Below are positions 1 to 58,392 of a DNA stretch of 64,000 nt, piece after piece. The stretch lies in contig CAJINV010000014.1 in NCBI GenBank assembly GCA_905178155.1, positions 2,015,888-2,079,887 on the forward strand, in the 5' to 3' direction. The position numbers and the translations under genes are program-made. A model generated the notes under the pieces. It was not told where the DNA came from, did not search any database, and saw only the letters and a list, made by a program, of their open reading frames with translations. Numbering within the stretch: the first letter of the stretch is position 1; every line of letters begins with the position of its first letter. The DNA comes from Amoebophrya sp. A120. Taxonomy: Eukaryota; Protista; Dinoflagellata.

Positions 1-3000
1 AGAGAAGTCCACTCCCTTGCTCAGCCTTGGTCGCTTCCGCCTTCATTTTTCGCTGTTCCTTGTACTGTTTTACGAGTTCCATCCGCTTGTCCTTCGGTAT
101 CTGAGTGACCCAATACTTTTCGAGTTCCTCTTTTCGTTTCTCCACCTCGTCGGTGGCAAGTTGACAGAATTTGTCGTTCTCCAACTCGTATGAACTGCAA
201 AAGTATCGTACTCGTACAAATGCATATACAAATTTATTTCTCAGCATCATCATCATCATCATCATCATCATCATTGAGAAATAAAATTTGTAATGCGGAT
301 TTACCTTAATAAGACAAAGATTTGTAATGTAAGACTTGCATTATATACGAATACGATACTTTTGCACAGGATAACTCGCGTCCGTTTTCGAAAGAGCAGA
401 CCTCTGCCCGCTTGTCGAGCCTCTCTTGCAAAGGAGCGACTCCTATCAAATGCAAAAATGTCTGGGTCTGGAAGAGTTGGAACCTGTGATGCAAACTCTG
501 GAACACGCAAAAACTTTTGTTGCGTGAGCGCCAAAAGCTGTCCATTTCTTGGTCCGCAAGTAGGAAGTTTCTGATGCGGGACAGGCATCATGAGGCGTGC
601 TCAAAACCTGTGATGCTTTTGCCTGCATCAGACGCCATTTGCGTGATCCGAAATATGCATGACAAATCTCGTAATCTTCCAGACCCAGACATTTTTGCAT
701 TTGATAACTCCTGACTCCGGTGCTCCCGGGTCGGCCTGTAGCCACTCTTCTGGCGGCCTCAAAGCCTCCGCTTCCAACGCGTCCATTTTCGCGCTACCAT
801 CCTCGGCGTTTTCAGAATTTATGCATTGCAATTATCATGTAGTTGTTACATGGGTGGTCTACAACTTTTAGAAGTCTATGTTGACATTCGCATTTTTGCA
901 ATAGAGTGGCCCGCCCTTGTTGTAAGTACGGTAGAACATCACCAGCATCAGAAGTTTCGCGGGCCGCCTATTCTTGCTGATTCATACCTGAAGGAGCGCG
1001 TGTATAATGACAAAGAAGTGCCATCAACCTCCGATATTAAAAGAATTCTTGATGGCCATGCATCAATTATCGCATCCATGCGTGACAGCTCTAGGTCTTG
1101 TTGTCCTTCAAATCTTGTCGCGTCACGAATTGTATTGTATCCAGACCCGGACGACAACTACATGTGTGCAATGCATAGCGTTGGGATCCTCGCCATTCAG
1201 GTGCTTCACGTCTTTCAGCGCTTTCTCCTCCCACTTCTCCATGATTTGTTGCGTCTCCAGCGCTATCCTGTGCAAAAGTATCGCACTCGTATATCATGCA
1301 GTCACGAATTACAAATCTTTCTCTTAAACTTAAGTTAAATCAGCATTACAAATTCTATCTCTCATGCTGAGGAAATTTCAATTTGTAATGCATTTATACG
1401 AGTACGACAATTTTGCAATTCATAAGCGCGACCGGGTCCATCACGGAATCTTGGGCGTAATAGGTCGACAGCAGCATGGGCAGTGCCTCCTTGGATTTTT
1501 CCTTGACCTGCTCTAACAGGTCGTCCTCCTGATCTCTTTCCCACCCCGTATCGTTAGAAAAAATCGGCCCTCCCCATATCGACAAGGCACACCTCAGAAA
1601 ATTTGTCATGGTGATTTGTAGCCACAAATCGCATCTGTGATGCAAGAAAGCAACGCCACAGGCTCCGCCCAATGGTGCAGGCGGTTTGTAATGCTGTTGG
1701 GCCTGCTACGGCATAGACGTTCCTCATGCTAAGTGCCTAGGCCAAAACCTCTCGACTCCGGCACGATATGGGCCTGCAGTCCTCTACTGCAAGACAAATC
1801 TGACTTGTGGACGCAAATCCGGCATCACAAATTTCGTTTCGATGTGGGGAGGGGGGATTTTTCCTTGTGATACCCCGCTTGCCAGAACCACGAGGCCCGG
1901 GTTTCCTCGGCGTCGATCGAGGCCAGCAGCTGCCGTTCCGAGGCCATCGCAATCTCCCCGGCACTATGAACTGCAAAAGTATCGTACTCGTATAAATGCA
2001 TTACAAATTTTCTCAGCATGAGAAATAAAATTTGTAATGCTGATTTGCCTTGACAAAGAAATTTGTAATGCAAGACCTGCATTTATACGAGTACGATACT
2101 TTTGCACAGCATAGGCACTTTGTCCCCGCCACTTCAGCAGCTGTCCAGTCAAGCGCGTGAGCGGGGACGTCATTGCGTTATGCTCCATGGTGAACTTCTT
2201 CCAGTCTTTATCACAGGAAAAAAAGTGCTAACGTTATACGGTTCTCCTAGGTTGCAAAAAAGCATGACAGATTTTGCCTAGGATGCATGCTACGCATGAC
2301 AAATTCTGGCACGTTTGGGGATGCATTTCTGCATCATAAATTCCGTTTTTAACGTTGTACACTTTTTCCTGTGATAGTCTTCCACCAGGACCCCGTCCTC
2401 GTCGATCAGCAGCTCCCCTCGTTCGTTGAGCCGCACGCGCGTGCCAATCTCCATTTCCTCCCCGTATCCAGGAAAAAACACCCATCCCCAGCCAATTTTT
2501 TGTGCAAAACATGCATAAGCTCCTGCAGGTTTTTTTTTTTTATGCAAAAAATGAATCATGGGGAAGATGGGTTTTTTTTCCTGGATACCCCGACGTACTG
2601 CCACATGCTTGTTTCGAAAGGCCCCCACCACACCTTTTGCCAGTTGTCATCGCTCTGTCAAATGTAAAAAAAGTGTCTGGGTCTCCTGGAAGAATGCAAC
2701 TTGTGATGCTGCATTTGGATTTCGAAAACAATCTGTATTGCGTGAGCGGCAAAGAGAATGCGATTTTTGCTACGCGGGGAGGGCATCTGTCATGCGGAAT
2801 AGGCATCAAGATGCCCTTAAAACGTCTGTGATGCTAGGGCATGCATATGCAGGCATCATGGGTCATACAAATTATGCATCACAAGTCTCAGAATCTTCCA
2901 GACCCAGACATTTTTGCACTTGATACGCTCTCCAGGGTGGCAATGTCCACCTTCGACAGGAGCCCCGGGCGTCTCCCGACCTTCCCTTCCTCGTCTATGG

Positions 3001-6000
3001 CGTTCTCAAATGTTAACAGATTCGCAGCTGTTACGTGATTTGTCACGCAATAAAACTCTCAGCAGTATCTACATTTTCAAGCTGCTTCGCATGACAAACT
3101 TCCAAAGAGGTAGACAGCATCTAAATTATCTGTGCCAGACTAACCTGCACTTAATGCGAAAGGCGCAAAAATCTTCCGCCGTGCTCTTGCACTTTTGCCA
3201 TTTTTGCATACTTATATACAAATTCATGTAACTACAGTTGAGGATGTAACGCTTGAGAACGCCATATCGTCCAGCTTCTCCTGCAACCGTGTGAAGTCGC
3301 TCGCCACCTTGTAGTGGTAGCCGGAGTAGTCCTCGTACCCCTCCACGCCGTGGCTCGCCATCTTATCGTCGAGGAGCTTCCCCTATCAAGTGCAAAAGTG
3401 TCTGGGTCTGGAAGAATGCAAGTTTGTCATGCTTGTCTCGCATGACTCTTAAATTTGTCATGCACATTACCCAAGACCCCCAGTTTTCTGTCATGCAGAA
3501 ACGCAGTTCGTCATGCAGAATAGGCAACATCAAGAAGCTCAGAAACTTGTCATGCTGAGACAGCACTTGCGGCCTCCTCATGATACGCCACCCAGCGTCA
3601 CAAGTTTCAAGACCCAGACTGCCATTTTTGCATTTGATATCCCCACTTGCTTGTAGTGCGCAATCTGCCGCTCCTGTTGTCGCAGCTTCAGCATTTCCTC
3701 CTCGGACAGGTTGCGACGTCGGTCGAAAGCCACTTGGTCAGCATCGCGCAGGTCGAGGGAAATCCGCTTGGCGCTGCCCCGGCTGATCAGCTTTTTGCTC
3801 GTCTTTTTTGGGTGCATATGGGGGCGTCAGGATCGAAATCGACAAAGTTGAAATAGTTTGTCAAGCACAAGAAAACGCAAGGCACGAACTGACTGTCTTG
3901 CAGGAATGCCAACAGACGAGGCCAACTGTAAGAGCCTGTTTGGGGTTTCAGATTCGATAGAGCTGCTGAAGTAGGATGACAAAAGCAGCTCTCTGTGCCT
4001 AAAGAGCATGACAAATTCGATTTCAATGCTGCCAAAATTCGTCACGCGCCACTTGAAAACTGAATTCCAATTGGTATCGATTTTATGATGGATTACAAAT
4101 CACATTTCAACTTTGTCAATTTCGAAGATCCTGACAGTTCCATAGTGCAGTACTTCCTTGTATTTCTTGCTGTACATCTTGTTTCCGAACCAGAACCAGG
4201 TATCCAGGAAAAAACACTCATCCCTATCGAATTTGTCATGCAAAACATGCATAAAATCCACTATTTGCCATGCAGAAAATGGATGGGGATGGGTGTTTTT
4301 TTCAGGATACCAAGCGCCACCGCCCACGAGCACGGACGCTGCGAGTTGCCGGGGGTCGTGGTAAAGCTGTGTCTGCTGCTCACCGATGGCCTGGACCGAG
4401 TCTCGCGCTGCTTCCATGTGCCCGAAGATTGTATCTTCCGGGTTCTCTCCTGCTTATGCATTGGAAATATGTCTGGGTCTGGAGGAATGCAAGCTTCTCA
4501 TGCTCGTCGTCACACATGATTATGATTCATCTCAAAAAATCTGCAATACACGTCGAGCAGGAAAGCAAAAGCCTCTTGCCTGTCATGCAAAAATGCAGTT
4601 AAATTATGCGAAAAAAAAAGCGAAGCACATTCATAGACGGAGCTCAAAAAATTGGCATGCGTAGCTCCGTTTTTTTCAGTGCGCTCACCAGTAATCCACT
4701 AGCATCGGAACAAGAAATTTCCAGACCCAGACATGATATTTCTCGCACTGCATACTGCTCCATGTCCATCTCCCGGGGATCCGATGGTGTGTTCGGCGTC
4801 GTGGACGTTCTATGAACTGCAAAAGTATCGCACTCGTATAAATGCATTACAAATTTCCCCAGCATGAGAAATTATGCGGATTTACCTGAAGAAAAAAATT
4901 TGTAATGCAAGACCAAGACTTGCATTTATACGAGTACGACACTTTTGCACAGGATACGTTCTGATAATCGTTGACGACCCTCTCGACAGCGTCATGCTTT
5001 TCATTCAACTTTTCGAAGTTGTCGTGGTCGATGCGTATCTTGTTGTCGTCGTGATGTCCCCCATTATTACCTCCTCCTGCGCTTTCGTCGGCGTCGGCGA
5101 CATGGTCTTTAATGTCATCCAGCAAGTCTTTATACTTGTTCGCCTGCGCGTCGAGATCGTCTTGCGACGGATTGTATCAAATGCAAAAATGTCTGGATCT
5201 GGATGAAGGTTGGAACTTGTGATGCTACAAAATCTGAATCATGCAAAAAGACAAATCTGTGTTGCAAGATTAGCAAATGCTGCCCAATTTTGATCAAGTT
5301 GCGAGGCAGTTTCTACTCATGCAGGATAGGCATGATAGTGATCTCACAGATGAATCTGTCATGCTAGGTCCTCCATGACAGATGAGATCGTATGCGTCAT
5401 GGAAAATAACCTGGATGACATAGTCTAGCAGCGTCTTTTGCTGTTCGTGCAATACAGATTTTTGTACCATCCAGATGCAGCATCACAAGTTGCATCCTTC
5501 CAGACCCAGACATTTTTGCAATGCATAGATTGGGATGTTGGTTCTCATCCACGGCGTCTTGGATTTCCGTCAACTGTGTCTGCCATCCTACTACCCGCTC
5601 GTGATCATCACTGTCACCTGCTGTCTGCCTCGCTAAGCCGTCTAAGATGTCCTTCATCGCATCGTGTCTGTCCGTCAAATCGTCGTGCGCGTCTATGGTG
5701 TGTTCCCTCTTAACTTCCGTGAGCACGTTATGGAGGCGCCAGGATTAAAATCGTCAAAGTTGAAATAGTTTGCGACGCATAAAATGCAACCCGCAAAGTG
5801 CCTGTCTTGCAGAGTAGGCAAGGGAGGCAGATCGCAAGCCTGTTGAGGGGTAGAAACTGAGCTGCTAAAGTAGCATGACAAAAGGCGGCTTCCTTACCCA
5901 AACAGCATTACAAACGGGATTTCGACTCTACCAAAATTTGTCACGCGCCACTTGAAAACTAGGCACCAACTGGCGCCCGTTTTAATTCTCCATTGCAAAT

Positions 6001-9000
6001 TATTTCAACTTTGTCGACTTCAATCCTGACACTCCCATACGCGTCAGAGACCAATCTTTCGTACTCGTTCATCTTTGCGTCGTACTTGTCAACGTTTCGC
6101 ACTGTCGCGATCGCGGTGTCAAGTTCTTCTTTTCGCGCCAGCAGAGCCCGTTTGTCGTCTCCGTCCGTGACTTCATTGATCAGCGTATCCACAGTAAATT
6201 TCCCGCACACGACGACGTACAATAAATGCTGTCACTGCATGACATCGTCATCATATTCATCGCCATGTAGTGGACACCCGCACCCAGCGCCACAGGTCAA
6301 GGATCCCCTCCCCGGGGGGTGGGCGAGGAAGCACTTTCGGCGACCTCATCATACAAAACTTGACTCCGATTCTAGTTTAGCATGACAGGCGTTAGTACAC
6401 TGCAAATTGGTCGTGAAATTTGTGATGCATCTTGTGCATGTACGGGAAATTTGTACTTATTGCATACAGCGTCTTCATGCTCGTCTGCATGTCGCGCAGG
6501 TTGTGTTCCTTTTCTTCATCGGCTTGGATCTTGGCGCCCTAGAGGTGTAGGTATTCAGTGCGTCGTGTTGAATAGATCGTAAAGTAGACAGACATCAAAG
6601 GCTTGTTCGTGTGTGCTGTGTAGTAAGGCATAAGTAGGCAAATGACAAGGTCAACAGTTGCAAGTAGCCGGACCAGCGGCCAGAACTACTTATCATGGCG
6701 GCGCTGTTGAGGAGCATGAGCCCCTGTTGCATCATCGAACTCAATGCGTGAAGGACTCGGTTCTTCTATCGGTATTTTTTTTACTTGATAAAAGTGTCAA
6801 ACAAGTAAAACGCTGAATACATAGAAATGGGGGGCGCGACCCCACCAGAGGACCACTGTGCTACGCTCGATTCCTTCGGGCATACTTTGTGCGGAGGGCG
6901 AGGGATGTTACAGCGATCAGGACAATAAATTTCAATTTGTTAACATGGACAGAACCAGTGTGAAACGATGGAGTTTTTTCATCGACCGAACTCGCTTTCT
7001 TTACGACAACACGGCCAAACTCGTACGGGCTCCTTAACATCTGGCACTAGAATACGAATTATACTTAGAAATCGAAATCCATGATCAAAATAAAAAAAAT
7101 ACAATTTCGTCCATGTTGCCCTCGCGCATGTCCTCCTCCATTTCTTTCAGAGTTCCAAGGTGCTGCCTGTCCATGTGTTCCACACTGCTCTATGCATTGC
7201 AAATGTGTAGTCTGGGTCTTGAACAAGAGTTCCATTTCCAACTTGTCATGGTGGTGCTAAGTCTGGATCATGCATAAATCTGCGTTGTATGATTACCAAA
7301 GGTTGTCCACTTTATTTGAACAAGTCAAGTCGAGAGGGACGAGTTTATCGTGCAGGAAAGCCATCATGAGACAGACTTCGCAGAATCTGTCATGCTACTT
7401 CCTGCATTTATTGAGACCTCATGCCGCGTCATGGAACACCTGCATGACAAGTCTTGCAATCTTCAAAAAGATGACCCAGACATGTTTGCAATGCGTATGG
7501 TCCTCAACTCCGCAATTTTATCGTCCGCCGCGTCCATTCTATCCTTTTGACTGTCGATATAGTCTATCAACTGCAATTGCAAATATGTCTGGGTCTCGAA
7601 TGTCATTTGTCATGCATCTCATAAAAAACAAAAAAAGTCTGGAAAAATGCACCCAGAAGCATCACAGATAATTTCGCAAGATCTTCTTGATGCCTATTCC
7701 GCGTAGAGGGTCGCCCTTCATTTTCGCCTGGCAAGATTTATTGGGCAAGAACGTGGTTTGCCATTCATGCAACACAGATTTTTGTACCATTCAGTAGATT
7801 TGGCATGACAAGTTGCCACGTCTTTCCAAAAGAACCAGAATCAGACACATGATTTGCAATGCGTATAGCTCGTCTCCTCGTCCGTCCATGGCCGCGTCGT
7901 AGCTTCTTCGAGCGCCGCTTTTTTGATGACGATTTTTTGCATAAGCACATCCAAATAATCAGACTCACTTTGGTCGTGTTCTTTGATAGGCGCGTCCGAC
8001 CCGAGCACCTCTTTCATGTCGTCACTCGTCCGCAAACTGCCGTTGTCTGGCAGCGCCTTGATCCTCGCCAGCTCGTCGTCCCATCGGTCTTTATTTTCCT
8101 GCAACGTTTGGTCCCAGTCGTACTCCTGCGTCATGTATGGATTGTAAATATGTCTGGGTCTCCTGGAAGGTTGCAACTTGCAATGCTAATTCTGGATCAT
8201 GCAAAAATCTGTGTTGCGTGAGTGCCAAAAGCGGCCCACTTTCAACCAAGTTGGCAGGGAGTTTCTCACGCAGGATAGGCGCGATAGATATAGAACTCTC
8301 ACAGAATCTGTCATGCTATGTCCTACATATTACCAGACCTCATGGGTCATGGAAAACCTGCGTAACAAGTCTGGCATTCTTCCAGACCCAGACATTTTTG
8401 CAGTTGATATCATGATTTGCCCCCCCTGGGGGTTATATTCCAAACTATCGGGTAAATTTGGATCGTTCTCCTTCTCCAGAACGTTTGGATGGTTCTCCAG
8501 CAGTGTGGTGATGTGATTTAAAACGTCGAGTCGCTCGTGTAGCTTATCCGAGCCGTCCGAAACAAAATGTTGAAGTTCGGCGGGCATTGTAGCTTTCTGC
8601 TCATCTAGCTGTTTTTGTAAGTCATCTAGGCGCATTTTGTTGTTATCTATCTGGTCCATACAAAACCCGTAATTGAAGTCTTCTCCGTAGTCCGAATTAG
8701 TGTCTCGTTCATGGCAATACGTTGCATCATGGTTCGTGATATCATCCTGCAAATCGTGGATCTCTTTGCTGGTTTCTTGGTAACGTTCGAGGTGTTCCTT
8801 TTCCTTCTCCCAATCCTCCAGATTCTCCGCCGCAGTGTGTTCGAAGTCATAGTTTTTCAAGAGTTCGTATCAGAGTGCGCAACTGCCCCTCCCCCTCATT
8901 TGTCACGCTAAATACCCAATCCACCCTTTTCCTCTTGGCGATGTTTGCATGGCAATTTCTGGTAGCCCAAATAGCGGCACTTAGACTTACACTCCAGTGC

Positions 9001-12000
9001 AAATTTGTCGTGCACAACCACCGCTCTTGCTATATTGCTGCTCATGCCGTACAAGAAATGAGGGGGAGGGGGAGTTGTGCACTCTCATAGTTCGTCCGTA
9101 TGGGGGTGGGCCTCCAGATCCAGGTACCCGCTCTCCTCCTCGCCAAGTTCCGTCTTCAGCCACTGACCCCAATGGCCATCGTGTTCTCGTATGAGAGTGC
9201 AAATACGACCCTAACCCCCCTCAATCCCCCCCTCGTCAATTTGAAAATACAAACTTCTCTCGCGAACAATCGACATCAGCGGGTCGCCGGAAGAAGGAGG
9301 AATGAAGATAATTCTCCAGGAACAAAAGTCCACCTCCACGACGACGATCATGTAGTTGAGACTGCAGCGCCTTTCGGCGTCATATGCATATGCATGCTGC
9401 AGGAGCTCCTGCGCAATCAAAATAGTGGTGCAATCACGACTACATCTACGCGGGGAAGGAGCCGCGTTCTGCTCGTTTTTTTGTAAAATGGCAAATGACC
9501 GCCACACGACCAGCGAAGTGGTGGAGAGAGAGTTTTCCGTATTGTGCTTTCTCATACCGTCGAGATCTTGCTTGATCTTTATGGCGTACTCAGAGGGAAC
9601 AGTCTACACTGGAACAAAAATGATGCAAAAAGCGGAAATATTTTCATGTTGTGAAAAAATCATCGAAATCAACAACGAGAACAAATGCAAAGTCTACCTC
9701 GACCTCCTACAGGTCTGCATGACAAATTTTGTGAGGATCATCTGAACGACGCGGTTATTTGGACGGTCGCAGATTTGATGTCATCCTAGACTCCATGTTG
9801 GTCGCGAGACAGATTGCCAACGTTTTAGCACCATCGCAAATTGTACGTAGATGTACTTAGTTCCACTCCAGATTATGTTCCACCTGAGCACGTCGTACAG
9901 CCGTTCGTGATGCTATTCCCTGAAAATTGAAAACCCCCATGATCCAATTTGTCGTGCACAGTACCCGCCTGTGGTCCACCACATCAAAAATGATCTTTGC
10001 ACTAGTACCACATCCAATTTATTGTTGAATGCAAATCGTGGAGAAGTAGTAGTAGGATGTGTTTTTGTCATCTTCATCATGCGGTGGAAAATGGATGATG
10101 ATGGTACAACATAATTTTCAGGGAATAGATGTCCTGAATGTTGTCGAGAAGTTCCTTGTTTTTCACCGCTCCGTGTATGATGTTGCCACTCCACTCCTTC
10201 GAATCTCCGTCGGGATTACTGGGATCAATATGGTCCAGTTTGTCCAGCGCCTCCTGGATCTTGTTGATCTCCTCATTGTCCTCTTGTGCATTGCAAAAGT
10301 ATCGTATGATCGCACTCGTTCTCGTATAGATTGCATTATAAATTTTGGCAATTTTGTAAAAATTATGCTGTTTTACTATTTATAGGAAGAAGATTTGTCA
10401 TGCATATTTGCAAGAGTCAGCACGACGAGTCAAATAGGTTTTGCAATGGATACCACGTGTTCTCGCTGGTCTAGACCCACTTCCGTGTTGTGGTCCTCCA
10501 GGGCTTGGATCAGGGTGTCATTATCAAATGCAAACATGTCTGGGTCTCTAATGCTAAAAATGAACGGTAGACGCACTGCACTGCGCAGCTATACATGACA
10601 AATTTTTTGGCTGCCATGTCTTACGTATTCCGCATGGCAAGCTGCGTTTTTGCATGACAGGTAAGAGGGCTTTTTCGTGCCTATGCAACACAGATTCTCG
10701 AGTCATGCCAGACAAGCATGACAAACTTGCACTCTTCCAGACCCAGACACTTTTGCATTTGATAGGCCTTCAGGTCTTGCAAGTCCTGTTTGGTGTGCCG
10801 CAGCGCATCCATGGCATCTGGCTGCTGTTATCGAAGAAAAAAAGTTCGTCACGATCACTTATGCGCATTCTTGCAATACAAAATTGTTTGTCATGCGTAA
10901 AAATGCATCACAGCCAAACTTCATTAGGGATTTCCCTAGTGTTTCTGCAATACAAGGAAAGTTTGTGACGCTGAGAAAATTTGTAATGCAAAGCCTGCAA
11001 GTTAGTGACTGTGACAAACTTTTTTCTCTCCATAACTGTTCCAAAGTATGCAGTACAATTTTTTTCCCGCTCATGTACAAAATGCATCACAAACTTCGCG
11101 GCCAACTTAGAGCATATTTTTTTATTACCACGCATTTGTCATGCTGAATAAGCTCCTACGCTAGTTTTGTCATGCGGAGCCAGCATTTGTACGCGTAGTA
11201 CGGGAATAGACTTACTGTGGATACAAAGTCAGGCCCTCCGCCTCACCGTGAAATAATAGCGGATTGGGCGCGTGGGTACCGTCTCCGTTCAAGTCCCAAA
11301 AGTGCGAACCCGGGTCGTGCACCAACCAGTCGTGCCAGTCTTCCTGATATCAAATGCAAATGTGTCTGGACGTCTGGAAACTTGTGATGCTGGCCGGCGA
11401 GACATGGAGACGCGACAAATGACGGGTCTTCAGCATGACAAGTTTCTGAGGTGCAAGGTGTTGTCTGACAGCATTCAGCATGACAAACTGCGTTTTTGAA
11501 TGACAAACAATTGGAACCTTTGGGCAATATCCTGCATGACAGATTCGGGAGTCATCATGCTAGCAGAGCAACACAAACTTGCACTTTACTTCCAGACCCA
11601 GACATATTTGCCATGCATAGCTGGTCCCACCCGTGTATGACGGCGTTGTTGGTCAAGTCCCGCTATCCTGTGCAAAAGTATCGCACTCGTATTGCAATCA
11701 TGATGCATTACAGATTTTTTTCTTCAGGGAAATCCGCATTACAAATTTTTTATTCCTCATGCTGAGGAAATCATTTGTCATGCATTTATACGAGTATGAA
11801 ACTTTTGCAGTTCATACTCCCAGCGCGTTATCAACTTCGAAGGTGTCCACGACATAGTTCACAAGCCGGTGTGTCATATGTAAAAACGTCCTCACATCCC
11901 CATAGCCAAGTTGGGAACCTAGCAAGACAAGTCAAGTCCACAAGTTTTGGGAGCCACGCATGAGAAGTTGCAGTCCGTAGTGTAGTGCATGTTTTTAGCA

Positions 12001-15000
12001 AGGACAACCGCATTTCAAATCCACCTGCTTATCCTGTTTACAGCATTACAAATTCCAAAACGCGGATGGAAATGCCTCCCATGGAGATGCGCATTACAAA
12101 TTTTCCTGATGAATCGCAAATCTGCATGACAACTATGGAGGGGTGGGGACGTTTTTACTCAGGATACCCTGCCCCATGTAGTCAAAGGGCTGGGTGTATC
12201 CTGTGCAAAAGTATCGTACTCGTACTAATTGCTTTTATGCATTACAAATCTTTTTCGAAAGACAATTCCGCATTACAAATTTAATTTGTAATGCTGAGGT
12301 AATTTGTATTGCAATTTATACTAGTACGATGCTTTTGCAGTTGATAGGGTGACCGTGTCCACCGTCCATTCCACAGTGTTCAGGCCGTAATTTGCTAGGT
12401 CCATCTGCGTATCCTGTGCAAAAGTAATATCGCACTCATACTAGTACAACTACTGATCATCGGAAGACTGCATGACAAATCTTTACCTGGATCTGCGTGA
12501 CAAACTGCTACTGCAACTCTCTTCTTAAGAAAATCCGTCATGCGAATCATACTACTGCGATATTAATACTTTTGCAATGCATACTGTGCGTCGTGTGTGT
12601 CCTCGTCTTTCACGAAATTGACGTACCCGAAGTCTCCGTCCCCAAAGTCAAAATCCCAGTCCTTGTCCCACTGGATGTCAAAGCCGAGTGCGCTTTCAAT
12701 AAGATTTGCCTATCCAGTGTAAATATGCCTGAGTCCTCTGAAACAATTCTGTCGTGACACTGACAGCTCAGCCTGATTGTGATTGACAACTAAATTTATA
12801 TTTATTGCAGCCCAGCATGATCCATCGATCATGAGAGCGAGGTTTTCCAACGCTCTTTCTGAAGACCACACGAGCAAGGATTACAAAATTTAAATTCCGC
12901 TTTTACAATTCAAAAACAGCGTCGCGTGTAGTATCAATCGCCACTCAGCATGTGCATGACGGATGATAGTACACGCGCTACTTCATTTGTTGATGTTGGC
13001 CACACAAGACCGATTCTACAGGGAAAAAAAACAAAGCGCGAAGCAAACATGGCAAGTGCTACTTCCCCGAACCCAGAGATTATATTCACGCTGGATATTG
13101 TATCCAGGAAAAAACATCACCCATCCCCATCCACTTTGTCATGCAAAACATGCACAAGCTGCGGTGTTTGTCATCCAAAAAATGGCTGGGGATGGGTGTT
13201 ATTTTTTCCTGGATATATTGCTGGTGCTTCGACGATGTCATATCAAACAAAAAAGTTGTGTTAACGTTCACGGTTTTCACAGAATGAAGTCACGCGTGAC
13301 AGATCTAGCCTAATCTGCATGCTATACATGACAAATGAATTTGGGCACGTTTTGTGGTCGTGCGTCATTGCATCACAAATTCCGCTAAGGTTAACACTTT
13401 TTCTGTGATATGTCATCGGCGGTGTCCACCAAGAAGTCGCGGCCCTGGGGAACGAGGTGTGATGCCTCGCCCCATGCACCGCCCAAATCGTGCTGTACAA
13501 AAAGTTCGTTTCCTACGTGTGGAAGCGCCAGGCTCGAAATCGACGAAAGTGAGACAACTTACAACGCATGCAGCCGCTACATACCGGTTGATCATGGGCG
13601 ATCACCTTGAACTTCAGCTTCTAAGCGTCGCAAAGCAATATTTTGGAAGCTCCTGAAAGAATCCGACTCACCGCAGTTGTGTTGGCGGCAAACGCGAATG
13701 CTTTTCTAGCGTTGGACCAGAAGTGTCCCTATTGCTACCTCTTGCGGATAGATGTGAAACAGGTGTGCAAACTTCTAAAACTGCATCGATCTGGCCGCGT
13801 TTTGGCACCGCGGTCCGCCTCCTCGGCGCTCTTTTTTTCTAGTCTTTGGTCTCGGGGTGCCGCGCTCGGTTTTTTTTAGCGGAGTCGCTCATGGCAGATT
13901 TTGCCGCAGCGCCGAAAATTATAAACATGGGGCGCCGGCCCTTTTTTCTATGAAAGCACGAGAGGCGAAGCGAGTAGGATAACCTTCTCCGCGCGCGCAG
14001 CGCGCGCGAAAATTTTGTTTCACCTCGCCCCCACTGACGCGGATTTTTTTTCTCTGGTTCCGCCCGGCGGCAGGCCGGCAGCAGCTGTGAGGCACCCGCG
14101 CGGCAGCTGTGCAACAGCCCGCGCAGCAGCCGGAATCAGGTGCGCAACAAGTGCGCAACAAGTGTGCAACAAGTGTGCAACAAGTGCGGATGGGTGTGAA
14201 ATAAGTCCGTTTTCTTTTAGAAAAAGACTTACTTCACACCTATCCGCACTTGTTGCGCACTTGTTGCGCACTTGTTGCACACTTATTGCGCACTTATTGC
14301 GCACTTATTTCACACCTCTCTCACACCTGTGTAACATTTGTCGCGAGCCTGCCCCCAACCGGCCTCACACCTGTCTCGCAGCCGTGCCGCAGGTCCCGCG
14401 CAGCGCACCCTGCGTTGGGGCCGGGCTGTTGCACGGCTGTCGCACAGCTGACCGCGAGGCCTCTCTTTTGCCGCCCGCGAAAAAGTTTGGGGGCCGGGGG
14501 CCTGGCTCTTGACCCGGGCCCGGTGAACCGGTCGGCCCGCGCTCGCCCTAGGCAACCCGAACGCGCGACGGCCCGCGACCACGGGTCTAGCCGACTACTT
14601 CTCGCCGCGTTGTGCATTGTGAAAACGCGACGGCCCATGCGGAACGGGCCACCCCTTTCGTCATGGAAGCTCCTGAAAGAATCCGACTCACCGCAGTTGT
14701 GTTGGCGGCAAACGCGATTGCTTTTCAAGTGCTTGTTTGCGGTAGTTCCTTCCACTTGCACTTCTAAACCTCGGCAAGCTAAGGCTTACTACAACAGCAG
14801 GCCTCGCTTGCCTACTCGCCAATACAGGAGGTTTGTGCTATTAAGCACGACTTTGATTTATTTTATGGGATGCAAAGCTCTTTCAATTTTGACGATTTCA
14901 AACCTGACGCTTCCATAAAACGGATACGGTACCCTGTGCAAACATTTCCACGGGTTTTGCAAGTTGCTCACCAACGTCAAGGACGTTCTCAAGGTTGTTC

Positions 15001-18000
15001 ACCACTGCGTCTTTTATCCAAGAAAAAAACGTTGTTAGTGTAAATTTGTGATGCGCAACCTGCAATATGATTGCGTCTGTCATGCTTGGCATGCATCGTA
15101 GGGCCCATTAAAAGGCGTTTTCACGTACTACCTGCGCATGACAGGTTTTTGCTGTCATGCCAGGCAAATTTGTAATGCTGTTGCTCCAAAAAAGTTACAC
15201 CTACAATGTTTTTTTCTTGGATATCTTTCGCACCAAATGTAGTAACCCACCCCATCCCGAACAAGGTATCTCCGATGTCGCCCGGCATGTCGCCTATATT
15301 GTCAATAAAGCCCTGCTTCGCTTTAGTTCCCTGCCTCCCGGAGGTTCCCTGCCTCGCTGTTTCCTGCCTCGCTGTTTCCTGCCTCGCTGTTTCCTGCCTC
15401 GCTGTTTCCTGCGTCGCTGTTTCCTGCCTCGCTACCTCCGTGTGCGTTCCAGTGGACGTCTCGAGGAAGGTATCCTGTGCAAAAGTACAGCGCTCGTATA
15501 TAAAAATGCACTACAAATTTTCTCAGCATGAGAAATAAAATTTGTAATGCGGATTTACCTAACGAAAAAGATTTGTATGTAATGAATGCCTGCAATTACT
15601 ACGAGTACGATACTTTTGCAGTTCATAGAAGGATGACGCGGGCGCGGCTGCTTCCTCCTGGGTGGCTGCTTCCTCCTGAGCTTGTTGCGTCTCCTTCCTG
15701 CGTATCAAATGTAAAAATGTCTGGGTCTGGAAGAATGCAACTTGTCATGCTAAATCTAAATGATGCAAAAATCTGTGTTGCGTAAGTGCAAAAAGCTGTC
15801 CGCTTTTGACCAAGTCGAGAGGGAGTTTCTCATGCAGGAAAGGCATGATAGAGACCTCCTCAAAAAATCTGTCATGGTGGGTCTCGCATTCCAGACCTCA
15901 TGGGTCATGGAAAACCTGCATCACAAATCTTGCATTCTTCCAGACCCAGACATTTTTACATTTGATACTGCGCATGGCTGCCGTACCGCGAAACCGGTAT
16001 CTCGGCTGGGCTGCAGCGGCATCAGGTAGTGCTAGATCATGATCGTCACCTCTTCCCGGAAGAACGACCTCCGACGCCGTCTCCCTATAATTTTCTTGAT
16101 GTTCCCCCTCCGTTTCACTGCTGCTCGCAATCTTGCCCTTCATCAAATAAACATCGCCGAAAGGAGGAGCATGGGGATCCTCGAGCGCCGGTACTACTTC
16201 TCCTTCATGGTCGCTCGGGGGTTCATCTTGCTTCTCTTCCCTATTCGTTGCAAGAACATCATCGGACGGAACAGCGTGGTCTTCACTGTGGCTCCTCTGT
16301 TGTAGTGCAGCCAACCTCGCACTCCCACGCAGGTTATTTTTCCGATGAATCTTCTTCGTCGTTGCCGCGGTTGCCGTTGCGCCACCAGCAGAAACTACTC
16401 CGTCTGACGACCACGAAGACCACGGAAAAAGAGCGGAAGACCCTACTTCTCGCCAATTATGGTTGCGCTAGGTCGTTGGGAATCGGCAAGATGGAAATGG
16501 CATGCAAGGATGTAAAAGATTGAAGATACCGGCCGGGCTACAATTTCTCGAAGCGGCCGCGCACGACAGATTTAGGGTTCGTCTTTATCCAACTTGCATT
16601 TGCCATGCTGCTTGGACGAGCAAAGCAGACGACTTCTGTCGTGCACTTCTATCACTAACACCAAATTATAACAGGCTGCAATCGACCTCAAATGCCATCA
16701 CTGCACGACAGGCTGCACTCTGTGCCTCACATTTCATGCATCGCCAATCTTTTCCTCTTTGTCGATATCCACCAATCTGACGCTGCCATACCGAGCTTTA
16801 TTGTCGTAGTGCTCGTCCTCGTCCGGTGCATACAGATTTTTGATGTGCAGATTATTGTACAAGGAGCTCCTCCTGGAGGTTTTAGCGCCAGCCGCGCGAG
16901 GCAAGCCGCTCGTGGTACTCGTACTGAAGGGTCGCGCAGATCTATCACAGGAAAAAACTGCTTCACTGCAAGGATTTTATACGCAACTTTTGCACGACCA
17001 TCACTAGTTTGTGCAAAACTTGCAATACTTCGGCTCTTCTACTTGTGCCGCTGTGTTGTTGCATATAATTATGCATCCTCTGCATGACTAAGCACATCAA
17101 GTCTACGGTGAAAGAGTTTTTTCCCTACGATACGATGCTAGAAGTTGCACCGCGTCGATATCTTCGCTGTATCTGTTTACTGAATAATTCAGATCTCTTT
17201 GCCCGGCGTGGGGGGTCTCCTCACTATCGTGCCCGTCACTTCGCATCATCACGGCGGCTCGCCTCCGCGCCCGCCGCGCTAGCACCTCCCGCAGCGCGTA
17301 CGCTTGTCGCAGCTTCCGCTTCAGCCGCCGGATCTTCAGCGCCCGTCGAAGCACGAACATGGTTATGAGAACCAAGTACAAAGCATCCAAGGAAAAAACT
17401 GTCTCAGAAGTCTCAAATCTTTGCAGACTCACTATTAAGGCAACACGAATTTCAGTTTCGGTTTAGCATGACACACAAATAAACTTGTGAAGTGTCAGTA
17501 GACTACACATGCCTGCGATAAAAGCATACCTGGCAGACACCTTTCATCTTGAATGTGCAGAAGCATGACAAAAAACTGAAAGTTAGTGTCTTAAGCAGCG
17601 TTTGCATTACAAGTTGGGACTGAGACATTTTTCTTTCGTGATACAAAGTGACGATCACTTTCCACCAGGAGAAGCGCGAGGAGGATGTTGACCGCCGTGA
17701 TTGCAGCTTCATCTGCTTCTTATCATCTTCTTCACAAAAAGTACCTCGCCTCTGCAGGTGCGACGCTCCTGCTCCTTCTGCTGGAAAAGAGCGTTCATCT
17801 GCTCCCGTGGAGGTGCTCGGTCCGGTACTAGACAGCGCTGGTGCTGTTGTGGCGTTGTAGGTAGTTGCACCGTCCTCCACTGCGCTGATCGCGCTGGTCT
17901 CACCACCTAGCGCATCACCGCGGCTGTTTGCTCGGTCCGCATCAGCATCCCATGGATGTTGTAGCTCGAGTTGCAGCGGCGCAGTCAGCGACTCCTCATT

Positions 18001-19590
18001 GTTTGTGCTTCCTGCTCGAAAATGGGCGGGTCTCTTGTCGCACATCAGTTCCTTCCACCAGCGAAAAGACAACAAACGTCTACGACGCGATGAAAGAAGA
18101 GTCCTCGTCGAAAAAGTAGTTGTAGTTTCTGCAGCCCGAGGATCGTCATCCTTGCTGCGAACAAAGGAACTGCGCATCATCATCAGGTGTCGCCGTAAAC
18201 AACTTGGCAAGCAGCAGCTTGTTGCGCGGCTTGCGGAAGCAGGTGCAACTTCTTCGGGCGGGACTTCATCTACACGGGGACGAGGCGACGTCACAGCACT
18301 CTTGGAGGAGCTCTTCTTTTTTTTCTTTTTCTTCTGTGAGTTACTGTGAGCTGCCTTCGTTTTTGTTACTCGAGTTACGGTGTCCGGCGGAATCATTGGT
18401 TCTCGATTGTACAACTGCAGCTCCCCCTGGCGCGGCTGGTCTTGCGTAGCAGAGGACTGGTAGCGGTCGACCTGGTGCTGCACCGCTGGACCTCCGCTTC
18501 TACTTGGATTTGGATTTGCAGCAGGGTGCTGTACTAGATCTGCAGCAGTACTATGGCGCTCTCAAGCGTTAGAATCAATGAAATGATCCCTGTAGAAGTT
18601 AGATGAAGATTTTGTATATGGTTCAAGAGTCGCAGACGCAAAAGCCTGGACCACGACCACTTTATCTTTAAATTCAATATATACGCTCGTTGCATTTATA
18701 CAAATGTGGTGGACGTAGAATCTTCAAGAAAAAATCGCACCTTGCATTTATGCAAAAAATCAAAAAAATACATAGCGATCGCGCAACGGCAATACATAGC
18801 GATCAGTCAGCACCAGTGTGTTAACGCTTGTGATGAGAACGCCATACACAGTACACGTCGAAGCGGAAACTTTTCCTCCGGCCACTTGGACATCATTTTT
18901 CGTCTCGTGACGGTACTCATCATGTTGTTGCAAGTGGATCGGAACCCTCTCCAAACTTGTACTGGATGTGCTGGAGTTGTTGTTCCTGTTCCTATTTTGA
19001 TTTTGTTGCACACTAACACTAGCCATGCCTGTCGCCCCTTGCTCCTTGTCAACGGTGGTGGTCTCGCGTGCAGCATCTCCTCCTGAACGAGCGGCCGAAA
19101 CGCCTTTGTTGCGATGATCTGCATGATCTGATGTGCAAACTACGGACTGCAGTGCGTCGTGTCGAGGCACGATCGTCGAGGAGATGTAGTTGGGCACCTC
19201 CTCCGACCTCCTGAAATTACCATGTTCTGCGCCCGGTCGTGCTGACAGGGCCGCAGTGGAGGCTGTCGCGCTCCTCGCGCTCGTCATCCTCTCTTCAGCT
19301 AGTGCAGCTGTTCGAGGACGTACTAGATCTCCATCTAATTCGGGCTCGGCGATCACAGCTGTCGCCTGAGCGGGGGCTAGCTGAATCGTGCTGCTGTTTG
19401 ATGTGCTCTTTCTTGTGGTCATTTCTGACTCGACGACAAGAACTTGATCCGTCATAATTCCTTTTCTCCCGCTTACAATCTTCTTGTGCACGTCCGATTC
19501 CATGATGGGTAGTCGTTCTCGCTCCCACTTCGGAAGATGTGCAGAGTTTCTGGCTTCTGCGACGTCCACCACTTCGCGAGGAAAGGCTGA
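1..19590 (-). CDS. Large multi-exon hypothetical protein (>2,200 aa in window; low-complexity N-terminal part, one predicted TM helix, long acidic/coiled-coil region); 46 introns; 3' end lies outside the window, 5' end uncertain
   Basis: Removing each TIR element plus one 5-bp repeat gives one stop-free frame by manual translation, e.g. ...SWWKVIVTL|YLVLITMFVLRRALK...PESGV|APLQERLDK...NGRE|LENDKFCQ.... No known domain recognised. Confidence 0.85.
189..373. mobile_element. Introner, family A (TATnnnnTGCAAAAGTATCGTACTCGTA)
   Basis: TIR; TSD ACTCG/ACTCG; internal (CAT)n expansion; removal restores frame. Confidence 0.95.
444..706. mobile_element. Introner, family B (TATCAAATGCAAAAATGTCTGGGTCTGGAAG)
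   Basis: About 30-bp perfect TIR; TSD ACTCC/ACTCC; frame restored. Confidence 0.95.
820..1177. mobile_element. Introner, decayed B-like
   Basis: TATGCATTGCA...TGCAATGCATA; repeat GCGTT at 806-810 and 1178-1182 (9-nt offset); frame restored. Confidence 0.8.
1264..1424. mobile_element. Introner, family A (opposite orientation)
   Basis: TATCCTGTGCAAAAG...TTTTGCAATTCATA; TSD AGCGC. Confidence 0.93.
1549..1872. mobile_element. Introner, family C
   Basis: Imperfect TIR (CCCTCCCCATATCGA/TCGATGTGGGGAGGG); TSD CCCCG. Confidence 0.88.
1965..2113. mobile_element. Introner, family A
   Basis: TIR; TSD GGCAC. Confidence 0.95.
2209..2376. mobile_element. Introner, family D (TATCACAGGAAAAAGTG..AACGTT)
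   Basis: TIR; TSD GTCTT. Confidence 0.93.
2465..2587. mobile_element. Introner, family E (TATCCAGGAAAAAACACCCATCCCC)
   Basis: TIR; TSD CCCCG. Confidence 0.93.
2656..2925. mobile_element. Introner, family B
   Basis: TGTCAAATG...CACTTGATA; TSD CGCTC. Confidence 0.92.
2996..3266. mobile_element. Introner, family F (TATGGCGTTCTCAA)
   Basis: 14-bp perfect TIR; TSD TCGTC. Confidence 0.92.
3384..3639. mobile_element. Introner, family B
   Basis: TIR; TSD TCCCC. Confidence 0.92.
3817..4144. mobile_element. Introner, family G (TATGG..GCGTCAGGATCGAAATCGACAAAGTTGAAAT)
   Basis: TIR; TSD GTGCA. Confidence 0.92.
4201..4309. mobile_element. Introner, family E
   Basis: TIR; TSD CCAGG/CCAAG. Confidence 0.9.
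4455..4754. mobile_element. Introner, family B
   Basis: TIR core ATGTCTGGGTCTGGA; TSD CTGCT. Confidence 0.9.
4811..4956. mobile_element. Introner, family A
   Basis: TIR; TSD CGTTC. Confidence 0.95.
5175..5527. mobile_element. Introner, family B
   Basis: TIR; TSD GATTG. Confidence 0.93.
5729..6039. mobile_element. Introner, family G
   Basis: TIR; TSD CACGT/CGCGT; interior similar to 3817-4144. Confidence 0.9.
6186..6466. mobile_element. Introner, family H (TATCCACAGTAAATTTCCCG)
   Basis: Imperfect TIR; TSD CAGCG; frame restored. Confidence 0.85.
6541..7117 (-). other. Non-canonical intron without recognisable TIR
   Basis: Flanked by direct repeat GCCCT; removal joins ...DMREG|AKIQAD... in frame. 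Confidence 0.7.
7191..7497. mobile_element. Introner, family B (diverged)
   Basis: TIR; TSD TGCTC/TGGTC. Confidence 0.88.
7565..7865. mobile_element. Introner, family B (diverged)
   Basis: Imperfect TIR; TSD TAGTC/TAGCT; frame restored. Confidence 0.82.
8136..8409. mobile_element. Introner, family B
   Basis: TIR; TSD TCATG. Confidence 0.92.
8868..9089. mobile_element. Introner, family I (TATGAGAGTGCACAACTCCCCCTCCCCCTC)
   Basis: TIR; TSD GTTCG. Confidence 0.93.
9190..9556. mobile_element. Introner, I-like (decayed)
   Basis: TATGAGAG...TTCTCATA; TSD decayed but removal of element plus 5 nt keeps frame. Confidence 0.78.
9580..9897. mobile_element. Introner, F-like (decayed)
   Basis: TATGGCGTACTCAG / CTGAGCACGTCGTA; no TSD match left, frame kept with +5 nt. 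Confidence 0.7.
9914..10127. mobile_element. Introner, family E2 (TATTCCCTGAAAATT)
   Basis: 15-bp perfect TIR; TSD GATGC/GATGT. Confidence 0.9.
10285..10452. mobile_element. Introner, A-like (decayed)
   Basis: TGTGCATTGCAAAA...TTTTGCAATGGATA; TSD CCTCT/CCACG; frame kept. Confidence 0.8.
10522..10764. mobile_element. Introner, family B
   Basis: TIR; TSD GTCAT/GGCCT; frame kept. Confidence 0.88.
10829..11034. mobile_element. Introner, family J
   Basis: AGAAAAAAAGTTCGTCAC / GTGACAAACTTTTTTCT; TSD GCTGT/ACTGT. Confidence 0.85.
11047..11223. mobile_element. Introner, family H
   Basis: End TTACTGTGGATA is the reverse complement of the 6186 start; TSD CAAAG. Confidence 0.85.
11348..11619. mobile_element. 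Introner, family B
   Basis: TIR; TSD CCTGA/GCTGG; frame kept. Confidence 0.87.
11664..11816. mobile_element. Introner, family A (opposite orientation)
   Basis: TIR; TSD CCCGC/CTCCC; frame kept. Confidence 0.88.
11872..12166. mobile_element. Introner, family K
   Basis: GTAAAAACGTCC / GGACGTTTTTAC; TSD CGGTG/CCCTG; frame kept. Confidence 0.82.
12197..12346. mobile_element. Introner, family A (opposite orientation)
   Basis: TIR; TSD GGGTG. Confidence 0.93.
12410..12583. mobile_element. Introner, A-like
   Basis: TIR; TSD CTGCG/CTGTG. Confidence 0.88.
12711..13097. mobile_element. Introner (TATCCAG...CTGGATA) whose right TSD is interrupted by a second element
   Basis: TIR; left TSD TTGCC, right TSD reconstructs to TTGCT after removing 13101-13215. 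Confidence 0.82.
13101..13215. mobile_element. Introner, family E, inserted across the end of the previous element
   Basis: TIR; TSD TATTG at 13096-13100 and 13216-13220. Confidence 0.92.
13241..13410. mobile_element. Introner, family D
   Basis: TIR; TSD TGTCA. Confidence 0.9.
13644..14729. repeat. About 66-bp direct repeat pair (13644-13709, 14664-14729) bracketing the insert
   Basis: TGGAAGCTCCTGAAAGAATCCGACTCACCGCAGTTGTGTTGGCGGCAAACGCGA... twice, 1020 bp apart, 2 mismatches. Confidence 0.93.
14138..14306. repeat. Long palindrome whose arms contain 11-bp tandem repeats
   Basis: (GTGYGCAACAA)x4...GCGGATGGGTGTGAAATAAGTC / GACTTACTTCACACCTATCCGC...(TTRTTGCRCAC)x5; centre near 14217. Confidence 0.93.
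15015..15223. mobile_element. Introner, family L (TATCCAAGAAAAAAAC)
   Basis: TIR; TSD TCTTT. Confidence 0.92.
15349..15434 (-). repeat. Coding 15-bp tandem repeat, (ARQET)n
   Basis: CTGCCTCGCTGTTTC units; ARQET is the frame continuous with the flanking exons. Confidence 0.85.
15471..15627. mobile_element. Introner, family A (opposite orientation)
   Basis: TIR; TSD GAAGG. Confidence 0.94.
15703..15967. mobile_element. Introner, family B
   Basis: TIR of more than 35 bp; TSD CTGCG. Confidence 0.95.
16458..16790. mobile_element. Introner, decayed
   Basis: TATGGTTGCG / CGCTGCCATA; TSD CCAAT/CCGAG; frame kept. Confidence 0.68.
16943..17132. mobile_element. Introner, D-like
   Basis: TATCACAGGAAAAAAC / GTTTTTTCCCTACGATA; TSD AGATC/CGATG; frame kept. 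Confidence 0.78.
17384..17643. mobile_element. Introner interrupting the TM-coding segment
   Basis: Imperfect TIR (TGTCTCAG/CTGAGACA); TSD CAAAG. Confidence 0.85.
18552..18846. mobile_element. Introner, family F
   Basis: TATGGCGCTCTCA / TGAGAACGCCATA; repeat AGTAC with 3-nt offset on the right. Confidence 0.85.
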
Positions 19591-57500: not shown

Positions 57501-58392
57501 CACAAGAGAGCCTTCTTCTTGTTCGTTTTTACCTCCGCTGGGAGCTGCATTCATCTGGTCGTCCCTCGTTTGCGTCTGCGCGGTGGTGGTTGCATGTTCA
57601 GCAAGACGTGCTAGTCCGTCCGCATCTGCTGCTCTCAGGGGGCTTTGTTCTTCTTCTTTCCCCGCAGCGAAGTTTTTATTTTCGCAACTTCTGCGTGCAA
57701 GCAGAGACGATGACCCGTCGGTTGCAGCATCGTCAATACTTCTTAATAACTTACTTCGTGCAGCTTGTCCTCCTCCGACGGAATGAGAGGGCTGTTCGTC
57801 CGATTCCGAGCTGCTGCTGTCGTCTTCGTGAAACAAGTTTCTCGCTTGGGTGAGCAGTTTTTGCCGGTTCTCCTGAGCAAAAACGTCCCCGTACCGTAAC
57901 AAAGTAGATGCGGAGTTTCGCTTCATTCAGTAGACTATTCTTCGTTAGAAGTAGTCATGTCATGGTTGGAAGTAGTCATGGCTTGTTCTAGCTTCTATCG
58001 TGACATCATCAGAAAATGTCATTTTCCCAAATCGTGCTTAATAGCCCGTGACAAGGTTCAATTCTCGAAATATCTCGTCCAGTAAATAAAAACTAAGCAT
58101 CGATGACTTTCACTCTCATTGGGCCAGGCATGACAAGCGTCTCGTTTTCTGGGGAACAAGAATGCAAGTTTGCGCACAAAGTTGTTTTGGAATCGCGGGG
58201 ACGTTTTTGCACCGGGTACCGCTTCTCTGCCTTTTCCCGGAGCTCCTTTTCTGCGTCAGACAGATCCGCGGCCGATTCCGCATCGGAACCCCCGTAGTAT
58301 TCCGCTGCCTTCTTGCCCCAGAACACCTCCTTCTCCAGCGGAAACTGCTGCTCGCTTTCCGAGAAATCACCGGAATCTTCGGAATGAGACAT
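54575..58392 (-). CDS. UTP3: SAS10/UTP3 small-subunit processome component, multi-exon
   Basis: N-terminal WGKKAAEYYGG; central APELQGLL and HPVFEQILAL; C-terminal Sas10 domain RFATKKILQNKGLVRIRPKKDRNSRVKHRRKYEKA...YSGEMTGIRTTVVKSHKL. Confidence 0.92.
55174..55508. mobile_element. Decayed introner in UTP3, now bounded by GT-AG
   Basis: CGAAATCTTG..AGTGTT inverted pair with TAT/ATA ends; minus-strand GTAA at 55512 and AG at 55173; frame kept. Confidence 0.8.
55614..55933. mobile_element. Decayed introner in UTP3
   Basis: TATCC..GGAAA / TTTCC..GGATA ends; no TSD match; removal of element plus 5 nt keeps frame. Confidence 0.55.

What the first reader, a model, noticed from the sequence alone, without database searches (positions are those of the whole stretch)
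189..15627. The same family is tolerated in both orientations within one gene
Seen: family A has asymmetric ends (TATGAAC vs TATCCTG). Copies at 189, 1965 and 4811 face one way; 1264, 11664, 12197 and 15471 face the other; all preserve frame. Inference: splicing depends on symmetric information such as the TIR stem rather than a linear donor/branch/acceptor, reminiscent of structure-defined nonconventional introns of euglenids.
Basis: partly seen in the sequence, partly recalled or inferred. Interest (0 to 1): 0.75.

Follow-up and report, generated by a model that had tools for sequence, protein, structure and literature searches.

The report
Transposon introns cut by hairpin ruler
In a marine parasite (Amoebophrya), small jumping-gene copies lie in both directions inside one long gene and are missing from assembled transcripts either way; where the junction can be pinned, the cuts fall 1 base before and 4 bases after the element, which likely means that the cell measures from the element's paired ends, a testable rule for a known but unexplained kind of intron.

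Summary
Mostly real, and a known kind. The window matches Amoebophrya sp. A120 (99% protein match). Family A is one of its published TAT…ATA introners (Farhat 2021). A minus-strand gene holds 43 such elements with 5-bp target duplications (TSDs). Removing each plus 5 nt, and one GT-AG intron, gives 1,752 stop-free codons. Transcript-like contigs skip element+5 nt at 12 of 12 listed introner joints, including 189, 1965, 4811 and the opposite-facing 1264. Corrections: 15471 has its interior in the 189 direction, and frame is kept by removal, not by length. In fetched loci family A lies 55:54 with versus against the gene. Both-orientation introners are published for Polarella and Aureococcus. Not found in print: copies with decayed TSDs fix the cut at −1/+4 from the element. 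Only 2 of 43 can be read GT/GC-AG. The terminal triplets are constrained unequally (intron +2 U unchanged in 336 of 336), so recognition is not purely symmetric. Best guess: a U1-less spliceosome guided by the hairpin; lariat versus circle is untested.

The parts
1..17460 (-). Host gene of unknown function (acidic, D/E-rich). 44 modelled exons, 5,258 nt, 1,752 codons without a stop. It runs off the window at base 1; its 5' end beyond about 16454 is not resolved.
   Evidence: contig coordinates; no Pfam hit in 4 of 4 exons tested
189..373 (.). Family A introner, orientation 1, with an internal CAT-triplet expansion; intron 185-374 under the -1/+4 rule
   Evidence: joint skipping 190 nt in X1, X2, X4
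1264..1424 (.). Family A introner, orientation 2; intron 1260-1425
   Evidence: joint skipping 166 nt in X1, X2, X4
1965..2113 (.). Family A introner, orientation 1; intron 1961-2114
   Evidence: joint skipping 154 nt in X1, X2
4811..4956 (.). Family A introner, orientation 1; intron 4807-4957
   Evidence: joint skipping 151 nt in X1, X2, X4
11664..11816 (.). Family A introner, orientation 2, TSD decayed to 3 of 5; removal inferred
   Evidence: frame and exact contig length; no joint row shown
12197..12346 (.). Family A introner, orientation 2; removal inferred
   Evidence: frame and exact contig length; no joint row shown
12410..12583 (.).
15471..15627 (.). Family A introner with the ends of orientation 2 and the interior of orientation 1; removal inferred
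   Evidence: contig ends at 15383 as predicted
9580..9897 (.). Old introner with no TSD left (0 of 5); its junction fits only the -1/+4 cut
   Evidence: table 5c, reproduced by one register only
9190..9556 (.). Old introner (TSD 1 of 5); junction allows a cut at -1 or -2 only
5729..6039 (.). Introner whose junction allows 0 or -1 only
820..1177 (.). Introner whose junction allows +1, 0 or -1 only
10829..11223 (.). Two introners (10829-11034, 11047-11223) around a 7-nt exon (11036-11042); the junction excludes register 0
12711..13215 (.). Overlapping pair: 13101-13215 inserted across the end of 12711-13097
13518..14917 (.). 1.4-kb introner with a GC-rich insert, removed as one intron (inferred)
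   Evidence: frame and contig length; zero depth at 13751-14850
6539..7102 (-). Canonical GT-AG intron, 564 nt, absent from the same contig
   Evidence: contig coordinates; ends printed

Best explanation
These are Amoebophrya A120 introners, miniature inverted-repeat transposons with a 5-bp target duplication that lie in both orientations and are missing, with 5 extra bases, from transcript-like contigs; they are likely removed as introns by a modified spliceosome that would take its positions from the paired element ends. Shown: removal of element+5 nt in both orientations, and a cut 1 nt before the first TAT and 4 nt after the last ATA wherever the junction is informative. Because 1+4 equals the 5-bp duplication, the mRNA returns to the pre-insertion sequence at any site and in either direction, so insertion costs the protein nothing. 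Inferred: the hairpin replaces U1 and the terminal G and AG in bringing the ends together, while the machine still reads a few bases in a polar way (U at intron +2, A at +3, A at -7). Speculative: the A at -7 is the branch nucleotide, with the 3' cut at a fixed distance from it.
For: 12 of 12 listed introner joints skip element+5 nt (15 of 105 joints were shown, the other 3 join repeat copies). One uniform register of the 7 tried reproduces the 27 letters between 9186 and 10128; 9190, 9580 and 10829 exclude 0, and 820, 5729 and 9580 exclude 2 or more. Contig coordinates keep a constant offset to the model at 5 of 5 testable anchors, and the predicted 31-mer breaks at 15383 and 15377 equal the contig ends. 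Only 2 of 43 elements can be read GT/GC-AG; 61 different end pairs occur among 293. Orientation 55:54 in family A, both orientations in all 9 families with more than one copy. Terminal triplet changes among 336 elements, 5' versus mirror 3' position: 0:5, 2:8, 10:1 (chi-square p 0.00035, small counts); directly oriented rows only 0:3, 1:8, 7:0. Interior T>C and A>G rates differ little (0.0148, 0.0116). A GT-AG intron is absent from the same contig. Farhat 2021 found U2, U4, U5, U6 and most spliceosomal proteins but no U1 in A120.
Against: No lariat, circle or inhibitor data. No U2-type branch motif is shared in either orientation (CTRAY in the last 60 nt: 5 of 55 and 2 of 53), and the stem would have to be opened. 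A hint of drift to G at +1 and AG at the end in this gene (18 of 43, 7 of 43; p 0.09, 0.05) did not repeat in 293 other elements (G 93 versus mirror 92; AG 27, same as the next register). All junctions come from one minus-strand gene, from contigs and not raw reads, 2 samples of 1 study, and the runs are only guessed to be RNA. The register is not pinned inside family A itself. The polar pattern rests on 26 changes, some of which may be boundary miscalls, and each pair alone is weak (p 0.06, 0.11, 0.012).
Confidence: 0.52

Rival explanations
1. A spliceosome-independent nuclease and ligase (euglenid-like, or tRNA/IRE1-like) recognises the hairpin with its 1-nt and 4-nt overhangs, cuts both sides and joins the exons, releasing a circle or linear intron.
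For: No G or AG requirement, no branch motif, no orientation bias; strong hairpins in both orientations; fixed geometry; 7-nt and 11-nt exons between hairpins; U1 not found. Euglenid nonconventional introns also have a stem set back by fixed distances and are released as circles.
Against: Pairing-breaking T>C changes are commoner at the termini than wobble-keeping A>G ones (15 versus 4), and the terminal helix of family A often does not form in the predicted fold (first base paired with the last in 2 of 7). The invariant +2 U recalls spliceosomal 5' sites. No such enzyme is known here.
Confidence: 0.33
2. A sequence-specific adaptor, such as a domesticated transposase or end-binding protein, reads the TAT-N7-AAA motif at both ends and positions the cuts; RNA pairing is a by-product of the inverted repeat.
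For: The motif is shared across families; terminal mismatches are tolerated; polar constraint.
Against: The two arms of one element match better than arms of different elements (10.0 versus 7.2 of 13 positions; biased upward because the detector required matching arms). Farhat found no transposase in A120. Old copies with drifted motifs (9580) are still cut exactly.
Confidence: 0.1
3. The elements are cut out of DNA (somatic excision or a retrocopy), and the contigs without them are DNA.
For: Runs X1, X2 and X4 are only guessed to be RNA; no DNA run was laid as a control.
Against: Those runs have zero depth at 13751-14850 and low depth (2-5) on unspliced pieces against 87 on the joined contig; a GT-AG intron is missing too; the junction at 9580 has no flanking homology; other runs hold 0.77 of the words of the unspliced stretch; Farhat's introns are supported by RNA-seq.
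Confidence: 0.03
4. Each orientation carries its own conventional donor, branch point and acceptor.
For: This is how both-orientation introners of Polarella and Aureococcus work.
Against: 2 of 43 elements in the gene and 5 of 293 elsewhere read GT-AG; the skip length is element+5 whatever the letters.
Confidence: 0.02

Closest known systems
Introner elements among the non-canonical introns of Amoebophrya sp. A120 (Farhat et al. 2021, PMC7789003; read: abstract, sections 10, 11, 12, 16, keyword passages, supplement legends; figures not seen)
   Same: Same organism by protein match; inverted repeats starting TAT, 7 looser bases, then an A run; 3-5-nt direct repeats; hairpin model; tens of thousands of copies.
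   Different: The text calls splice positions relative to the hairpin variable and the border unknown, and gives no orientation analysis in the passages found. Here: fixed -1/+4 register, exact 5-nt removal, no orientation bias, polar end constraint. Figs 3, S19, S21 and S23 could not be seen and may show part of this.
Both-orientation introners of Polarella glacialis and Aureococcus anophagefferens (bioRxiv 10.1101/2020.10.14.339549, passages; Aureococcus only as cited there)
   Same: Inverted-repeat transposons with TSDs that make introns in either orientation and restore the mRNA.
   Different: They use GT/GC/GA and AG sites from the element or TSD, often in several registers, and are biased to one orientation. 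The A120 elements need neither site and show no bias.
Nonconventional introns of euglenids (review PMC11282704, section 6 and passages)
   Same: Non-canonical ends, stem set back from the ends by fixed distances, TSD-like repeats, MITE origin proposed.
   Different: Stem starts at +4 and ends at -6 with CAG/CTG; circles shown there, untested here; unrelated lineage.
Non-canonical introns of Fritillaria borealis (via PMC11282704, section 6)
   Same: MITE-derived introns with TIR and TSD, removed by an adapted spliceosome.
   Different: Mostly AG-AC or AG-AT ends; here only the +2 base is fixed.

Membership tests
Amoebophrya A120 introner elements | Host is Amoebophrya sp. A120 | tested here: met
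   RLP24-like exon 99% identical to an A120 protein, 83% to A25
Amoebophrya A120 introner elements | Inverted repeat starting TAT, then 7 looser bases and an A run | tested here: met
   position tables for 43 and 293 elements
Amoebophrya A120 introner elements | 3-5-nt direct repeat at the boundaries | tested here: met
   perfect 5-bp TSD in 24 of 43 in the gene
Amoebophrya A120 introner elements | Repeated family, removed from transcripts at non-GT-AG ends | tested here: met
   RNA status of the runs is a guess supported by coverage
Canonical-site TIR introners (Aureococcus/Polarella type) | GT/GC/GA donor and AG acceptor from element or TSD | tested here: not met
   2 of 43 readable as GT/GC-AG
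Canonical-site TIR introners (Aureococcus/Polarella type) | Intron creation in either orientation | tested here: met
Euglenid nonconventional introns | CAG at +4..+6 pairing with CTG at -8..-6 | tested here: not met
   stem runs from +2 (TAT) to -5 (ATA)
Euglenid nonconventional introns | Released as full-length circles, not lariats | not testable with these tools
   only assembled contigs of the right strain were available; raw run X9 does not hold the gene
U2-type spliceosomal introns | Branch point and lariat | tested here: inconclusive
   no shared CTRAY motif; near-invariant A at -7 is only a candidate

The most novel reading that the evidence does not exclude
Amoebophrya A120 runs a general 'transposon eraser': a splicing activity that measures 1 base out on the 5' side and 4 bases out on the 3' side of any TAT…ATA hairpin, matched to the 5-bp duplication of its transposons, and needs only a U at +2 and an A at -7. 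Any insertion, in either direction and at any coding site, is then silent in the protein. The chemistry could be a spliceosome that has dropped U1, G+1 and AG, or a new non-spliceosomal pathway.
Probability: 0.55. Interest if true: 0.75.

Novelty: already known. Interest (0 to 1): 0.5.

Why it matters
How Amoebophrya removes more than 60% of its introns without GT-AG, and apparently without U1, has been open since 2021. A fixed -1/+4 register gives exact intron ends, so it predicts the junction of a lariat (first base joined to the A at -7) and of a circle, and makes the question directly testable in existing RNA data. It would also correct gene models where the TSD has decayed, since the register then changes the encoded residues, and it explains why these elements can fill genes at no cost to the protein.

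Tried and rejected
No whole genome was held, so statistics come from the window and 93 fetched loci. My first guess, giant-virus stem-loop introns, found no paper and fell. A candidate element at 6767-7106 was dropped: contig coordinates put it inside a 564-nt GT-AG intron. Open frame alone does not fix the skip length or register: removing 2 or 8 extra bases can also give no stops, and registers 1-5 all do; the contigs decide. Enrichment of G at +1 and AG at the 3' end was borderline in the gene and did not repeat. A 477-nt match in L037 is two neighbouring elements of the same families, not a related gene (tblastn empty). No pair of register-informative copies from one family in opposite orientations was found; 7565, which faces against six family B copies, still excludes the flipped register. 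Raw run X9 gave 218 partial reads on repeats only: no evidence either way. No run is on record as an RNA holder. Host protein: no Pfam hit in 4 exons, no homolog among proteins of 264-2000 aa (weak, the protein is probably longer). No Rfam hit in 1-20000. Rows dropped: of 410 unique elements in the loci, 117 had no gene strand and were left out; 213 were oriented by their own open frame and 80 by agreement within the locus. Literature searches without a statement of the register or of orientation for Amoebophrya.
Full report
What is there. The first 17 kb of the window are dense with short elements that begin TAT, end ATA, have inverted ends and are flanked by a 5-bp direct repeat. An RLP24-like exon at 21082-21465 is 99% identical to a protein of Amoebophrya sp. 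A120 and 83% to A25. Farhat et al. 2021 (PMC7789003; sections read) describe these elements in A120: non-canonical introns with inverted repeats starting TAT, then seven looser bases and an A run, with 3-5-nt direct repeats. The object is therefore already known.

The observation. All seven copies are present. By their interiors, 189, 1965 and 4811 face against 1264, 11664 and 12197. Copy 15471 has the ends of the second group and the interior of the first. End swaps are common: among 109 family A copies in other loci, 69 have the usual end pair, 29 another pair and 11 could not be classed. Four more families occur in both directions in this gene: 444/2656/5175/7191/8136/15703 against 7565; 3384/4455 against 10522/11348; 3817/5729 against 16458; 6186 against 11047. 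The copies do not keep the frame by length; each brings stops if retained.

Removal from transcripts. Runs X1, X2 (one sample) and X4 (a second sample, same study) are guessed to be RNA. Their coverage fits that: zero depth at 13751-14850, and one contig at depth 87 that lies only on exons. Of 105 joints, 15 were shown. Twelve are introner joints and all twelve skip element+5 nt, among them 189 (190), 1965 (154), 4811 (151) and the opposite-facing 1264 (166). The other three join repeat copies on other contigs. No joint row was shown for 11664, 12197 or 15471. Their removal is inferred from length: the model of 43 introners plus one GT-AG intron (6539-7102) keeps a constant offset to the contig at 5 of 5 testable anchors. 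It places the start of the main contig at 15377 and the end of the upstream contig at 15383, which are the two bases where a 31-mer assembly must break in the tandem repeat. The model gives 1,752 codons without a stop. Its part upstream of 16454 rests on frame alone, and the upstream contig holds more sequence than I modelled.

Where the cuts fall. With a perfect TSD the junction can slide, which is why the published borders look variable. Old copies with decayed TSDs remove the ambiguity. Let k be the number of bases before TAT that go with the intron. The junctions allow k = -1..1 at 820, -1..3 at 4201, 0..1 at 5729, -2..3 at 7565, 1..2 at 9190, 1 only at 9580 and 1..6 at 10829. Only k = 1 fits all, and only k = 1 of seven uniform registers reproduces the 27 letters between 9186 and 10128. 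The intron is thus N-TAT…ATA-NNNN. At 9580 no TSD is left, so the cut follows the element and not flanking homology. One plus four equals the 5-bp duplication, so a fresh insertion leaves the mRNA unchanged. The rows for 9190 and 9580 come from one sample, that for 10829 from X1 alone. The register is not pinned within family A, whose four observed joints have perfect TSDs.

Wider sample. A 29-base pattern found 93 loci in one other assembly, with 461 elements (410 unique); shuffles gave 0 against 158 in the first 30 loci. Gene strand was assigned by open frame for 213 and by agreement within the locus for 80 more; 117 were dropped. There is no RNA for these loci. Family A lies 55:54 with versus against the gene (36:40 in direct rows), and no family is biased. 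Ends are free: 2 of 43 elements in the gene can be read GT/GC-AG, 5 of 293 elsewhere read GT-AG, with 61 end pairs; no branch motif is shared. A hint of drift to G and AG in the gene did not repeat.

Symmetric or linear? Both orientations fold into long hairpins. But a signal inside an inverted repeat is present in both orientations anyway, so orientation alone cannot separate stem from sequence. The terminal triplets give a test. Among 336 elements, changes at the first 5' base versus its 3' mirror are 0:5, at the second 2:8, at the third 10:1 (p 0.00035, small counts; direct rows 0:3, 1:8, 7:0). Interior T>C and A>G rates are close, and a single strand bias cannot give both directions. So U at intron +2, A at +3 and A at -7 look constrained beyond symmetry, and pairing-breaking changes are tolerated. 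This rests on 26 changes, a few possibly boundary errors, and the window's variant copies were picked by a gap search.

Mechanism. Best supported (0.52): a spliceosome that has lost U1 (reported missing) and uses the hairpin to set positions while still reading +2 U; the A at -7 could be the branch. From memory, not from a call: branch points at a fixed 6-8 nt from the 3' end occur in Yarrowia, Giardia and Trichomonas. Main rival (0.33): a nuclease-ligase route like that suspected for euglenid nonconventional introns, which leave as circles. A motif-binding adaptor (0.10), DNA excision (0.03) and hidden conventional sites (0.02) are less likely.

Novelty. Introners that work in either orientation are published for Polarella and Aureococcus, with ordinary splice sites and a bias to one orientation (bioRxiv 10.1101/2020.10.14.339549, passages). 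The 2025 introner survey covers A120 but required same-orientation matches (PMC12130899, passages); the 2022 survey allowed both (PMC9860276, passages and section 7). I found no statement of the fixed register, the lack of bias or the polar constraint for Amoebophrya (PMC11453091, passages). The figures of Farhat 2021 were not visible and most subscription papers are not searched. Earlier notes of this scan report similar introns in Prorocentrum; I did not check them. Interest 0.5.

Noticed in passing
window 12707-13216: Element 13101-13215 inserted across the end of 12711-13097. The contig fits removal of the transcript-upstream one first, which rebuilds the TAT of the second; the other order would differ by one base. 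Tentative: a single mismatch could be hidden in the alignment.
   Followed up: partly
window 11036-11042, 9899-9909, 9558-9575, 13219-13236: Micro-exons of 7, 11, 18 and 18 nt between neighbouring hairpin introns, present in the transcript contig.
   Followed up: partly
window 13518-14917: A 1.4-kb introner holding a GC-rich insert of about 1 kb with a long central hairpin of 11-bp repeats (14133-14311), between two 66-bp direct repeats at 97% (13644-13709, 14664-14729). An unknown mobile or recombined element.
   Followed up: partly
window 21762-22888: A 1,127-bp TAT…ATA element with a perfect 5-bp TSD and a second inner inverted repeat (21892-21961 / 22689-22758), between the exons of the RLP24-like gene; no match in the fetched loci.
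   Followed up: partly
window 15471-15627 and loci L001-L093: Family A ends and interiors are shuffled (29 of 98 classifiable copies), suggesting exchange or inversion between the inverted repeats.
   Followed up: partly
window 3855-4105: A very deep contig (depth 890-1924 in X1, X2) matches both ends of element 3817-4144 but skips 249 nt: probably a short, highly expressed relative from elsewhere.
   Followed up: no
window 6539-7102: The one GT-AG intron contains a decayed TAT-like element (6767 to about 7106) whose end lies at the GT donor; possibly an introner turned conventional.
   Followed up: no
window 15329-15433 and 245-273: A coding 15-bp tandem repeat (ARQET units), and a CAT-triplet expansion inside the family A copy at 189.
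   Followed up: no
window 27000-48000: Further introners at much lower density (for example 28991, 29370, 30849, 31043, 32593, 32925, 34849, 35371, 40928, 47321); density differs sharply between genes.
   Followed up: no
window 54575-57926 (-): Long open frames resembling a Sas10/Utp3-type protein (label recalled from the look of the translation, not tested).
   Followed up: no
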